DNA from: Escherichia coli
Lineage (GTDB): Bacteria; Pseudomonadota; Gammaproteobacteria; Enterobacterales; Enterobacteriaceae
Assembly: GCF_016903815.1 (NCBI RefSeq)
Contig: NZ_CP069973.1
DNA: 64,000 bases
Strand: one strand, 5' to 3'
In this document: one piece after another, positions 35,901-38,351 of the stretch
How positions within the stretch are numbered: position 1 is the stretch's first letter
Layout: each line of letters opens with the position of its first letter
Position numbers: made by a program

Positions 35901-38351
35901 TATGTTCGGTATGTACGGCAGAAAAGTAAAGTTATCCCATTCTGAGATGATTGAAGATAATAAAAAAGACTTGGCTGTAAATGAACATGGGTTGACATGT
36001 CCATTTACACAAGATTGCTGGTAATGCTGCCAACTTACTGATTTAGTGTATGATGGTGATTTTAAGGTGCTTGCGTGGCTTCCATTTCCATCAGATGTCC
36101 TTCCTGCTCCGCTACTGAAGGCGTGGTGCGTAACGGCAAAAGCACTGCCGGACATCAGCGCTATCTCTGCTCTCATTGCCGTAAAACATGGCAACTACAG
36201 TTCACTTACACCGCCTCTCAGCCCGGTACGCACCAGAAAATCATTGATATGGCCATGAATGGCGTCGGATGTCGCGCCAGTGCACGCATTATGGGCGTTG
36301 GCCTCAACACGGTTTTACGTCACTTAAAAAACTCAGGCCGCAGTCGGTAACCTCGCGCATACAACCGGGCAGTGATGTGATTGTCTGCGCTGAAATGGAC
36401 GAACAGTGGGGCTACGTCGGTGCTAAATCACGTCAGCGCTGGCTGTTTTACGCGTATGACAGGATACGGAGGACGGTTGTGGCGCACGTCTTCGGTGAAC
36501 GCACTCTGGCCACACTGGAGCGTCTTCTGAGCCTGCTGTCGGCCTTTGAGGTCGTGGTATGGATGACGGATGGCTGGCCGCTGTATGAATCACGCCTGAA
36601 GGGAAAGCTGCACGTTATCAGCAAGCGTTACACTCAGCGCATTGAGCGACATAATCTGAATCTGAGACAACATCTGGCAAGGCTGGGACGGAAGTCACTG
36701 TCGTTCTCAAAATCGGTGGAGCTGCATGACAAGGTCATCGGGCATTATCTGAACATAAAACACTATCAGTAAGTTGGAGTCATTACCAGATTGCTCAAAT
36801 AGATGTATTGATTATATTAATCCAGAGCATAAAAAAACGATAAAGGCTTTACAAGATGCTGGCTATCTCAAGTAACATCTCAAAGATGGTAATATTTATT
36901 TTTGCTATTATAATCGTTGTTTTTTTATGCGTGACTACTTATCTTTATTTACACAAAGATGAATCTCTTGTAAGTAAGCATTACATAAACTATATGGCAA
37001 TACCAGAAAGTGATGGGGTTTTTACATGGCTCCCAGATTTTTTTCCGCATGTAGCGGTGGATATATCAATATCCACAAATGTAGAAGATGATTATTTTTT
37101 TTCTTATTTTTCCCTAACAATCGATGATGGGGGGAGGTTTAAGAAAACATTGACGGTGAGGGCCAGGGAACAAGTGGCGAAAATCGTATCAGAGAATGAT
37201 CCAGATACAAAAAAAGTGTGGTGTAAATATGGTAAAATACCAGGGCAAGGGGATAGCGTAAACCTTTTTTTTGTTGGTGAAATTAATGTTACGCATTATT
37301 TTATAACAAATATTGGAGCTGGATTGCCTGATGCTTGTGCAGAGTAATTGCTTGAATTAAGAGTCTATCCCATATCGAAGTCGTCAACTTCGTAGTGAGG
37401 AAAAGTAAAATCCCTGACTGAGAAAAGACATGTCGGCTATTGTGTAAAGCCATATAGCTCAGACGATGAATATCTACTCGTATTCAGTTGTTTATTGAGG
37501 GTGAGTTCCGACCCTGAAACAACAAATAAAATGAATAGTCAGAGAGTTTACATAGAATTGCACTAGTCTTTTACGATATCTGACATTGTGTAATACATAT
37601 TCAGCCATGCATTAATTAAAATGTTTCGTGTTTAATGTGAGTCCCTATCTGAAAATAAATAATCCTTCCGGATTAAAATAAATTCTCGCCGGGAAAGAAA
37701 GAGGAAATAAACCATTAGCGGAAAACCAGCGGCACGCCAGGGTGACATGCCCCAGTACGGCGGCCCGATAGTCCAGGGTTCAGCGGGGGTACTGATAGTC
37801 GCGCCGACTGCATCGAGAACTCCATACAACTTTTTACGGAACGTCACCTGATAAAATTTGTTCAGTATCGTCTTTTGAGATTCTCAAGGTTATGGAGTAA
37901 CCAGACAGAACGGACACCACTGTCGGAGATAAAAACCCCCTGTTTACGCAGCTCGTTGCTGGCCCGGTGCTGACCATGTGTCGGGAAAGCGACGGTGTAA
38001 TCAACAACAGCCTGTTCAGTTGCCTCATCGGTACGGTTCTTAAGGTTAGGAGCGCGGCGACTACGATTAATCTGCACATCCACACCGCCTTCAGCGGCCA
38101 GTTCGCGGTAACGATAAAACGTTTCACGCGAAACGCCCATGATTTTACAGGCTTTTGATACGTTGCTGAGTTCTTCAGCCAGATTGAGCAAACCGGCTTT
38201 GTGTTTGATGACGGGATTGGCAGTATGAAGCATGAGAGTTACCTCTTGTTTTGGATAAGGATTCGACACTCATATCAAAACCGGTAACTCTCAACCTTTC
38301 AAGGCCATGTGTCAGATCAAGTCGCGACTAATACAAATACGTCCCTCATCA

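What the first reader, a model, noticed from the sequence alone, without database searches (positions are those of the whole stretch)
36856..37347. Membrane-anchored orphan-like immunity candidate with no recognisable family
This AT-rich ORF of 153-163 aa has a single N-terminal TM helix and a soluble domain (…FTWLPDFFPHVAVDISISTNVEDDYFF…GEINVTHYFITNIGAGLPDACAE). I cannot assign that domain to any immunity family.

Its ATG at 36856 overlaps the reconstructed toxin 3' end by 20 nt, which suggests translational coupling.

Membrane tethering of an Rhs immunity protein is uncommon. It constrains where the SAA-like toxin acts.
Basis: inference. Interest (0 to 1): 0.5.

Follow-up and report, generated by a model that had tools for sequence, protein, structure and literature searches.

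The report
Periplasmic immunity gene ybbD, toxin broken
The ORF is the intact form of the E. coli K-12 pseudogene ybbD, most likely a membrane-anchored, periplasm-facing immunity protein for a serum-amyloid-A-like (Lipocone) Rhs toxin that an IS1 insertion has broken in this strain; the gene and this kind of system are already catalogued, but no one has tested it.

Summary
An AT-rich 163-aa ORF lies at 36856-37347, with an N-terminal hydrophobic helix. It overlaps the reconstructed Rhs toxin end by 20 nt.

It is not an orphan. It is the intact ortholog of the K-12 pseudogene ybbD (NCBIfam NF011298, Pfam PF26610 YbbD_head). The region is present in 2963 of 5426 complete E. coli genomes.

The upstream tip is the K-12 ylbH type and belongs to the prok-SAA family of Lipocone toxins. 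IS1 cuts it at 36020-36787.

All ten distinct tip+downstream-gene pairs compared have a YbbD-family gene directly downstream, as do the K-12-type and Hafnia alvei copies, where it is frameshifted. Toxin and partner co-diverge (r 0.73, Mantel p 0.0004). The partner evolves about twice as fast but under purifying selection.

Seven of 28 family members are lipoproteins. The others carry a positive-inside signal anchor, and two cysteines are conserved. The soluble domain is therefore predicted to be periplasmic.

This fits the published rule that immunity proteins to Lipocone toxins are membrane-tethered and act outside the cytoplasm, as in TelC/TipC.

The domain folds confidently (pLDDT 92) but has no solved relative.

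Verdict: a real, probable immunity gene and a new member of a known kind. Binding, protection and toxin chemistry are untested.

The parts
36856..37347 (+). ybbD-type gene, 163 aa: predicted membrane-anchored periplasmic immunity protein for the prok-SAA Rhs tip
   Evidence: ORF. NCBIfam NF011298 at 1.5e-112, full length. Pfam PF26610 YbbD_head, precomputed for the 99%-identical P0001. PGAP annotates it as WP_000879780.1. dN/dS 0.18-0.33. AF2 pLDDT 91.8.
36886..36951 (+). N-terminal hydrophobic signal-anchor, residues 11-32 (MVIFIFAIIIVVFLCVTTYLYL)
   Evidence: KD19 maximum 3.03. AF2 helix 3-33. No lipobox in this copy, but 7 of 28 relatives have a lipobox and Cys in its place.
36955..37344 (+). 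Soluble alpha/beta domain, residues 34-163, predicted periplasmic
37027..37047 (+). Family signature W58-L-P-D-F-F-P64, the most conserved stretch of the family
   Evidence: P60 and P64 are invariant; W58, L59, F62 and F63 are at least 90% conserved in a 20-sequence alignment with mean column identity of 34%.
37222..37224 (+). Cys123 codon, first of two family-conserved cysteines in the soluble domain
   Evidence: C123 and C161 are at least 90% conserved. My reading of the cysteine positions printed (the script did not count pairs): about 24 of 28 family members carry both.
37336..37338 (+). Cys161 codon, second conserved cysteine, near the C-terminus
   Evidence: DSSP marks residue 161 as a beta-bridge in the model.
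37095..37102 (+). T8 homopolymer tract inside the gene; the K-12 ybbD frameshift (T7) lies here
   Evidence: Alignment of the window with K-12 ylbH-ybbD shows a single-base gap in this tract. K-12 annotates ybbD as a pseudogene.
37265..37272 (+). Second T8 tract; a -1 frameshift here would explain the 149-aa variant cluster P0002 (351 member sequences)
   Evidence: The P0002 tail NLFLLVKLMLLIIL is close to the -1 frame read from this tract. This is my reading of the sequences.
35671..36019 (+). 5' part of the prok-SAA (Lipocone) toxin tip of the Rhs protein, up to the IS1 junction. It retains D, H, E, D and N, the invariant polar residues, but loses the last 26 residues.
   Evidence: Profile built from 35 non-enterobacterial Prok-SAA sequences of PMC12419801: 59 bits for the reconstructed tip, 52 bits for the truncated one. 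Pfam SAA 4.1e-4, below the cut-off. Invariant residues. All-helical AF2 model.
36020..36787 (+). IS1 insertion (insA/insB) interrupting the toxin tip
   Evidence: Junction alignment against the uninterrupted EFF60 sequence. PGAP annotates an IS1 family transposase in the identical strain 7/2. 92 complete genomes share the junction.
36788..36875 (+). Displaced 3' end of the toxin tip: TSD copy at 36788-36795, then the last 26 codons and stop. It overlaps the ybbD start by 20 nt.
31897..35670 (+). Rhs delivery and shell region (DUF6531 header, RHS repeats, RHS core ending in DPxGL)
   Evidence: Pfam RHS_repeat 1.5e-79, DUF6531 1.2e-18, RHS 6e-17. NCBIfam RHS_core and Rhs_assc_core on the C-terminal part.

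Best explanation
The ORF encodes the cognate immunity protein (YbbD family) of a polymorphic Rhs toxin whose C-terminal tip is a prok-SAA member of the Lipocone superfamily.

Proposed mechanism:
- The protein inserts in the inner membrane through an uncleaved N-terminal signal anchor. Some relatives use a lipoprotein anchor instead.
- Its roughly 130-residue alpha/beta domain faces the periplasm, probably stabilised by a C123-C161 disulfide.
- There it binds and blocks the toxin tip at the outer face of the inner membrane. By analogy with TelC, the toxin is predicted to cleave the head group of a lipid-linked envelope precursor such as lipid II or undecaprenyl-PP-linked intermediates.
- The gene is translationally coupled to the toxin gene through a 20-nt overlap.

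In this strain IS1 has cut off the last 26 residues of the toxin. The intact ybbD then serves to protect against attack by strains with an intact tip, or possibly against a still-active truncated toxin.

Shown here: gene reality, family membership, genomic linkage and co-divergence, membrane or lipoprotein anchoring, and prok-SAA membership of the tip.
Inferred, not shown: topology, disulfide, direct binding, protection, toxin chemistry and T6SS delivery.
For: 1. Linkage. The tip and a YbbD-family gene are adjacent and co-oriented in:
- E. coli
- metagenomic Enterobacterales contigs L007-L010 and L015, L016
- Hafnia alvei
- Yokenella, Phytobacter and Pragia
- Salmonella enterica subsp. salamae
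- Gallibacterium and a JGI metagenome contig, where the partner is very divergent but still scores 19.9 and 23.8 bits against the family HMM.

2. Co-divergence across 10 pairs: Pearson r 0.73, Mantel p 0.0004. Mean identity is 55% for the tip and 31% for the partner. dN for the partner is about 3 times that of the tip, with dN/dS 0.18-0.33. This pattern is typical of immunity genes.

3. Orphan copies without any toxin occur in Leminorella, Intestinirhabdus and Hafnia paralvei. A decayed pair occurs in Buttiauxella. Immunity genes commonly behave this way.

4. Location. Seven of 28 members have a lipobox plus Cys. Most of the rest have a hydrophobic anchor with a positive N-flank and a neutral or negative C-flank; two representatives have no strong hydrophobic segment in the scanned N-terminal window. 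Two cysteines are conserved in the soluble domain.

5. Toxin identity.
- The Pragia tip is itself listed in that set as WP_074823867.1.
- Several homologs carry precomputed PF00277.
- The top four PDB sequence hits are SAA proteins, at E-values that are not significant.
- The AF2 model is a helical bundle.

6. Published framework. PMC12419801 section 30 states that immunity proteins of Lipocone toxins are all TM proteins or lipoproteins acting in the periplasm or membrane. TelC is active only outside the cytoplasm.
Against: - No experiment exists on this pair, or on any prok-SAA toxin.
- For the window copy alone the charge bias is weak (net +1 at the N-flank, 0 at the C-flank). The topology rests on relatives.
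- The domain has no solved structural relative, so no binding mode can be borrowed.
- The invariant hydrophobic WLPxFFP motif is unusually conserved for a fast-evolving immunity protein. It could instead point to a membrane- or lipid-directed role.
- The sNxxGR motif of the SAW clade has L or I in place of R in this enterobacterial subgroup.
- Complex prediction could not be run.
Confidence: 0.75

Rival explanations
1. YbbD protects indirectly. It does not bind the toxin. Instead it shields, sequesters or repairs the lipid-linked target at the outer face of the inner membrane, with the invariant WLPxFFP segment serving as a membrane- or lipid-binding element.
Confidence: 0.12
2. The soluble domain faces the cytoplasm (N-out/C-in) and neutralises the toxin before export, as classical Rhs immunity proteins against nucleases do.
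For: Most characterised Rhs tips act in the cytoplasm (reviewed in PMC6730261). The charge bias of the window copy is weak on its own.
Against: Seven relatives are lipoproteins, which are exported by definition. Most anchored relatives have the positive charge on the N-terminal side. A conserved cysteine pair fits an oxidising compartment. The toxin tip itself has five conserved cysteines. The Lipocone precedent is extracytoplasmic.
Confidence: 0.06
3. The ORF is a decaying remnant or an unrelated small membrane protein with no role in toxin immunity, and the linkage is only hitch-hiking within the rhsD element.
For: The gene is frameshifted in K-12, in a large variant cluster and in Hafnia alvei. 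In this window its toxin is dead.
Against: Purifying selection holds over deep divergence. The model is confident. Linkage to the same tip family recurs at different chromosomal sites and in different genera, including orphan-tip arrays. Pseudogenisation occurs where the tip is only an orphan fragment, which is what loss of need predicts.
Confidence: 0.05

Closest known systems
TelC / TipC of Streptococcus intermedius (T7SS LXG toxin and its immunity protein)
   Same: TelC is a Lipocone-superfamily toxin. It cleaves lipid II and is toxic only outside the cytoplasm. Its immunity protein TipC counters it outside the cytoplasm, and the paper groups all Lipocone immunity proteins as TM proteins or lipoproteins (PMC12419801). 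The logic proposed here is the same: an extracytoplasmic lipid-head-group toxin with a tethered extracytoplasmic immunity protein.
   Different: The toxin family differs (prok-TelC versus prok-SAA), as does the delivery system (T7SS in a Gram-positive versus an Rhs, probably T6SS, in Enterobacterales). YbbD shows no detectable sequence or fold similarity to any solved structure. The activity of the present toxin is untested.
'Imm-SAA' and 'Imm-BamE' candidate immunity families of Burroughs et al. 2025 (PMC12419801)
   Same: Both are predicted immunity partners of prok-SAA tips with TM or lipoprotein anchors (supplement table). The paper's Prok-SAA set contains the Pragia tip, whose neighbour is a YbbD-family lipoprotein. 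The C-terminal half of the YbbD model has alpha-alpha-beta-beta-beta order, like the BamE-like fold the paper describes.
E. coli K-12 ylbH-ybbD (b0499-b0501) pseudogene pair in the rhsD element
   Same: This is the same locus and the same genes. The K-12 ylbH tip is 93% identical to the tip here. K-12 ybbD matches the ORF apart from one frameshift in a T8 tract.
   Different: In K-12 a newer tip plus ybbC has displaced this tip to orphan status, and ybbD is frameshifted. Here the tip is still on the full-length Rhs but is cut by IS1, and ybbD is intact.
Periplasmic immunity proteins of T6SS cell-envelope effectors (for example Tli1 for Tle1 in EAEC)
   Same: Tli1 is a lipoprotein that binds and inhibits a periplasm-acting effector 1:1 (reviewed in PMC6730261).
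   Different: Those effectors are cargo or VgrG-linked lipases or peptidoglycan hydrolases, not Rhs-encapsulated Lipocone tips. There is no homology to YbbD.

Membership tests
YbbD family (NCBIfam NF011298 / PRK14710.1-3; Pfam PF26610 YbbD_head) | Score above the curated cut-off of the family HMM over its full length | tested here: met
   NF011298: 373.4 bits against a cut-off of 326, residues 1-163 on profile positions 1-163. PF26610 is recorded for the 99%-identical P0001 and for relatives. That model is not in the local Pfam copy, which found nothing significant.
Polymorphic-toxin (Rhs) cognate immunity gene | Encoded immediately downstream of the toxin tip, on the same strand, with a tight junction | tested here: met
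   20-nt overlap in E. coli, L007 and L015. 4-nt or 1-nt overlaps in Yokenella, Gallibacterium and S. salamae. Gaps of 10-30 nt in L016 and L028.
Polymorphic-toxin (Rhs) cognate immunity gene | Co-occurs and co-diverges with one toxin-tip family across genomes | tested here: met
   All ten distinct tip+downstream-gene pairs compared have a YbbD-family gene downstream, as do the K-12-type and Hafnia alvei copies, where it is frameshifted. r 0.73, Mantel p 0.0004. The sample is small and phylogeny is not controlled.
Polymorphic-toxin (Rhs) cognate immunity gene | Binds and neutralises the cognate toxin and protects cells | not testable with these tools
   No complex prediction tool and no experiment were available, and no literature exists on this pair.
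Immunity proteins of Lipocone toxins (functional class, PMC12419801 section 30) | TM or lipoprotein anchor with an extracytoplasmic domain | tested here: met
   There is an anchor helix in the window copy. Seven of 28 relatives are lipoproteins, and there is a positive-inside bias and a conserved Cys pair. The anchor is shown; the extracytoplasmic orientation is inferred from sequence features, not measured.
'Imm-SAA' domain as described in PMC12419801 | One helix plus a run of four strands, stabilised by four absolutely conserved cysteines | tested here: not met
   YbbD has two conserved cysteines and a larger domain of eight strands and two helices.
BamE-like immunity superfamily (PMC12419801) | Two-helix hairpin followed by three strands; structural similarity to BamE | tested here: inconclusive
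prok-SAA family of the Lipocone superfamily (the upstream toxin tip) | Sequence-profile membership | tested here: met
prok-SAA family of the Lipocone superfamily (the upstream toxin tip) | Four-helix core plus a short fifth helix; conserved polar active-site positions including sNxxGR in H4 | tested here: inconclusive

The most novel reading that the evidence does not exclude
YbbD is a structurally new immunity fold, not one of the immunity families so far described for Lipocone toxins. Its near-invariant WLPxFFP loop acts as a lipid-tail mimic that plugs the substrate cone of the SAA-like enzyme. If so, the E. coli ylbH/ybbD-type pair would be the first genetically tractable system in which the proposed enzymatic activity of the serum-amyloid-A family (cleavage of lipid-linked head groups) could be demonstrated and inhibited.
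Probability: 0.25. Interest if true: 0.6.

Novelty: new member of a known kind. Interest (0 to 1): 0.4.

Why it matters
This assigns a role to two long-standing K-12 pseudogenes, ylbH and ybbD, and to a 'hypothetical protein' whose region is present in over half of complete E. coli genomes. They would be a Lipocone (SAA-like) toxin and its periplasmic immunity protein.

No prok-SAA toxin has been characterised, and the biochemical activity of the SAA family, including human SAA, is still debated. An E. coli-native pair offers a simple test bed, because K-12 is a natural ybbD-defective, presumably sensitive host.

It also illustrates three points. Anchor type switches between a TM helix and a lipoprotein within one immunity family. 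Immunity genes outlive their toxins: here through IS1 disruption, elsewhere as orphan copies. Homopolymer tracts appear to inactivate the gene where it is no longer needed.

Tried and rejected
- Local Pfam-A scan of the ORF: only a noise hit (Ac76, E 0.34).
- PADLOC: no hit.
- The ORF also gave a weaker match, far below cut-off, to NCBIfam NF007301/PRK09781.1. I guessed this might be K-12 YbfC, the protein downstream of the ybfO orphan tip, but BLASTP shows no similarity and the family HMM scores it at noise. I did not establish what PRK09781 corresponds to.
- The two long repeat proteins in the representative search (P0071 with FN3-like repeats, P0080 with Ig-like repeats) are additive-repeat artefacts and were discarded.
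- The search for related loci failed with the full 20-sequence alignment and was rerun with a 9-sequence subset.
- The paper's supplements were searched for the gene-context lines of the Pragia and E. coli tips and for Imm-SAA sequences. They are not held.
- The promoter and terminator scan around the gene found no more than chance, so it says nothing about how ybbD is transcribed downstream of IS1.
- P0101 (Rodentibacter) could not be located in the contig index.
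Full report
**Where we are**

The window is the E. coli rhsD element. The gene order is:
- ybbP at 29054-31468
- a 1375-aa Rhs ORF at 31897-36024
- IS1
- the ORF in question
- a short Rhs N-terminal fragment (ylbI type)
- ylbG on the minus strand
- mnmH/selU, allS, allA and allR.

The 913 bases from the IS1 right end onward are 100% identical to many complete E. coli chromosomes. The region is found in 2963 of 5426 complete genomes, and 2740 of these cover at least 80% of the query.

**The observation**

The ORF at 36856-37347 is 163 aa from the first ATG and 153 aa from the ATG at 36886. It lies in a 0.34-0.38 GC island between the 0.61-0.68 GC Rhs core and flanks of about 0.5 GC. 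Residues 11-32 form a strongly hydrophobic segment, which AlphaFold2 models as part of a single helix spanning residues 3-33.

The toxin gene is interrupted by a 768-bp IS1 at 36020-36787, flanked by an 8-bp duplication, AGATTGCT. In strain EFF60 the IS1 is absent.

**It is a real gene and it has a name**

The ORF matches NCBIfam NF011298 (PRK14710.1-3) end to end, at 373 bits against a cut-off of 326. It matches NF011297, an 86-residue model, over its first 85 residues.

Database relatives carry the precomputed Pfam family PF26610 'YbbD_head'. The local Pfam copy lacks that model, which explains why a direct scan found nothing.

Alignment with K-12 shows that the ORF is the intact form of the annotated pseudogene ybbD (b0501). 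K-12 differs by one missing T in a T8 tract at window 37095-37102. The tip upstream of ybbD in K-12 is the orphan fragment ylbH, 93% identical to the tip here.

Against homologs of 71% and 50% identity the gene has dN/dS of 0.33, 0.26 and 0.18. With a 20-sequence alignment AlphaFold2 gives mean pLDDT 91.8. 'Orphan-like' is therefore wrong. 'No functional annotation' is right.

**How large the family is**

An exhaustive HMMER search of 1.84 billion cluster representatives found 42 hits. About 20 are full-length proteins of 135-183 aa at 29-40% identity, plus one 164-aa relative at 52%. Two long repeat proteins in the list are artefacts.

The alignment has a sharply conserved N-terminal 'head':
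- I49, G54, W58-L-P-x-F-F-P64, I70, N75, F81 and F85
- then W122-C123, Y148 and C161.

**The toxin**

The Pfam SAA model hits the truncated tip at E 4.1e-4, below the gathering score.

Burroughs et al. (eLife 2025, PMC12419801) define the Lipocone superfamily and list prok-SAA among the families recruited as polymorphic-toxin tips. Their Prok-SAA sequence list contains WP_074823867.1, which matches the tip I retrieved from Pragia fontium (L025). It also contains HAU8267270.1, a close relative of the tip here.

I built an HMM from 35 other, non-enterobacterial members of their list. It scores the reconstructed tip at 59 bits (E 2e-20 for a single comparison) and aligns the D-x-F-F-H-C, K-E-x-x-D and D-L-x-x-N-x-x-G motifs.

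In a 37-sequence alignment of tip homologs, D75, H79, C80, C84, K105, E106, D109, D136, N140, G143 and C152 are invariant, in P0013 numbering. Several homologs carry precomputed PF00277.

An earlier in-silico paper on EHEC noted that the RhsD (z0651) C-terminus resembles human SAA1, and it named locus z0654 as 'RhsDI' (PMC7216683).

I take membership in prok-SAA as established by sequence. The enzymatic activity is a prediction from that paper, modelled on TelC. TelC cleaves lipid II and is toxic only outside the cytoplasm.

Tip homologs and YbbD homologs were collected independently and their neighbourhoods were read.

| Source | Tip identity to window | Partner |
|---|---|---|
| E. coli, intact or IS1-cut | same | this ORF |
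| K-12 type | 93% | frameshifted ybbD |
| Metagenomic contigs L007-L010 | about 89% | 71% identical |
| L015 | 82% | 50% identical |
| L016 | 57% | about 38% identical |
| Hafnia alvei | 86% | orphan tip plus frameshifted ybbD |
| Yokenella, Phytobacter, Pragia | 56-62% | 32-43% identical over the matched segments; the last two are lipoproteins |
| Salmonella enterica subsp. salamae | about 52-57% | 173-aa YbbD_head protein, in an array of orphan toxin/immunity pairs |
| Gallibacterium and a JGI metagenome contig | 57% and 39% | 19.9 and 23.8 bits against the family HMM; unrelated neighbours YbfC and YbbC score about 1-2 bits |

Every tip I could examine has a YbbD-family gene directly downstream. 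The junction is a 20-, 4- or 1-nt overlap, or a 10-30-nt gap.

Across ten pairs the pairwise identities of tips and partners correlate (r 0.73, Mantel p 0.0004). The partner diverges about twice as far: mean identity is 31% against 55%. This small-sample test does not remove shared phylogeny, but the pairs sit at different chromosomal sites.

YbbD genes also occur alone. Examples are between cysB and acnA in Intestinirhabdus, and in Leminorella and Hafnia paralvei. A decayed pair occurs in Buttiauxella. Orphan immunity genes are a familiar feature of polymorphic-toxin systems.

**Where the protein sits**

Taken alone, the window copy has a weak charge bias. The family settles the question better:
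- Seven of 28 members replace the TM helix with a lipobox plus Cys (LTAC, LCGC, LSGC, LCAC, FISC, FCGC). They are therefore exported lipoproteins.
- Most anchored members carry net +1 to +6 on the N-terminal side and 0 to -4 on the C-terminal side. Two representatives have no strong hydrophobic segment in the scanned N-terminal window.
- By my reading of the printed cysteine positions, about 24 of 28 keep both soluble-domain cysteines.

The toxin tip has five conserved cysteines. I infer an N-in/C-out signal-anchor protein with a periplasmic, disulfide-bonded domain.

For this toxin class, however, tethering is expected rather than unusual.

**What the domain looks like**

The model has this order of elements: strand 38-45, short helical turns, strands 68-75 and 80-86, helix 89-97, strand 101-103, helix 105-114, then strands 120-127, 135-142 and 147-151.

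No solved structure resembles it convincingly:
- Foldseek: best E 0.85
- PDB sequence profile: no hit.

The paper describes two candidate partners for prok-SAA toxins, and neither can be equated with YbbD:
- 'Imm-SAA' is described as one helix plus four strands with four absolutely conserved cysteines. YbbD does not meet this.
- A BamE-like alpha-alpha-beta-beta-beta domain. The C-terminal half of YbbD has that order, but no BamE structure was retrieved.

The paper's immunity sequences are not in the held supplements, so this question stays open.

**State of the system in this window**

The Rhs ORF stops at 36024 after '...TQDCW'. It keeps all invariant polar residues but loses the last 26 residues. 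These include the near-invariant C156 and the two terminal helices.

Exactly this junction is present in 92 complete genomes. At least 433 genomes have the uninterrupted junction at high identity. ybbD stays intact in the IS1 lineage.

Elsewhere the gene is often broken at one of two T8 tracts. K-12 is broken at 37095-37102. The 149-aa cluster P0002 has a tail consistent with a -1 frameshift at 37265-37272.

The promoter scan gave nothing above chance. How ybbD is transcribed behind IS1 is unknown.

**Mechanism, with its status**

Shown:
- a conserved, selected, confidently folding gene
- strict adjacency and co-divergence with one toxin-tip family
- a membrane or lipoprotein anchor
- a tip that belongs to prok-SAA by sequence.

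Inferred:
- periplasmic orientation and the disulfide
- one-to-one binding and inhibition of the tip at the outer face of the inner membrane
- cleavage of a lipid-linked head group (lipid II or Und-PP type) by the toxin
- delivery by a T6SS. The Rhs has the DUF6531 header and RHS shell. E. coli Rhs proteins of this type are described as PAAR-Rhs T6SS effectors (PMC7216683, PMC6730261). No T6SS gene was examined here.

Rivals are indirect protection of the lipid target, a cytoplasmic orientation, and a functionless remnant. They are listed with their evidence and together carry roughly a quarter of the probability.

**Novelty and score**

The gene, its families, the SAA-like nature of the tip and the periplasmic-immunity rule for Lipocone toxins are all in databases or the literature. 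No paper I could find links YbbD to that rule or tests it.

I rate it a new member of a known kind, of moderate interest. It is not surprising to a specialist. It does give a convenient E. coli system for testing the proposed enzymology of the SAA/Lipocone family.

Noticed in passing
window 36020-36787: A complete 768-bp IS1 with an 8-bp target duplication (AGATTGCT) truncates the Rhs toxin 26 codons before its stop. The identical junction occurs in 92 of 5426 complete E. coli genomes, so it marks a lineage.
   Followed up: yes
window 37095-37102 and 37265-37272: There are two T8 homopolymer tracts inside ybbD. The K-12 pseudogene has T7 at the first. The 149-aa variant cluster P0002 (351 member sequences) has a tail consistent with a -1 slip at the second. 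These may be recurrent inactivation hot spots, or a form of phase variation of an immunity gene.
   Followed up: partly
window 37714-37809 (+): This 32-codon fragment ([32 protein letters not shown]) is nearly identical to the N-terminus of the Rhs protein at 31897. It corresponds to the K-12 pseudogene ylbI and is a relic of another Rhs 5' end downstream of the element.
   Followed up: partly
window 37862-38269 (-): This is a ylbG-type ORF with winged-helix/HTH_29 and HTH_32 domains typical of transposase N-termini. PGAP annotates it as a partial pseudogene, so it is probably an IS remnant bounding the rhsD element.
   Followed up: partly
L026 (Salmonella enterica subsp. salamae CP029992.1) 2832-7183: This is an array of orphan toxin/immunity modules behind one Rhs: an Ntox16-like fragment with DUF6714, the prok-SAA tip with YbbD, and TseH with Imm58. 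It is a compact example of tip displacement with retained immunity genes.
   Followed up: no
L021 (Intestinirhabdus alba) 5944-6423; L024 (Hafnia paralvei) about 5900-6438; L019 (Leminorella) about 5950-6495: These are stand-alone YbbD-family genes with no Rhs or SAA-like tip within 6 kb, sitting among housekeeping genes (for example between cysB and acnA). They are candidate orphan immunity genes against attack by other strains.
   Followed up: partly
   Followed up: no
L003 (K-12) 5582-5950, ybbC: The K-12 RhsD immunity candidate YbbC (PF15631) also begins with a lipoprotein-like signal (…FILFAC). So the tip that displaced the SAA-like one in K-12 may also act in the envelope.
   Followed up: no
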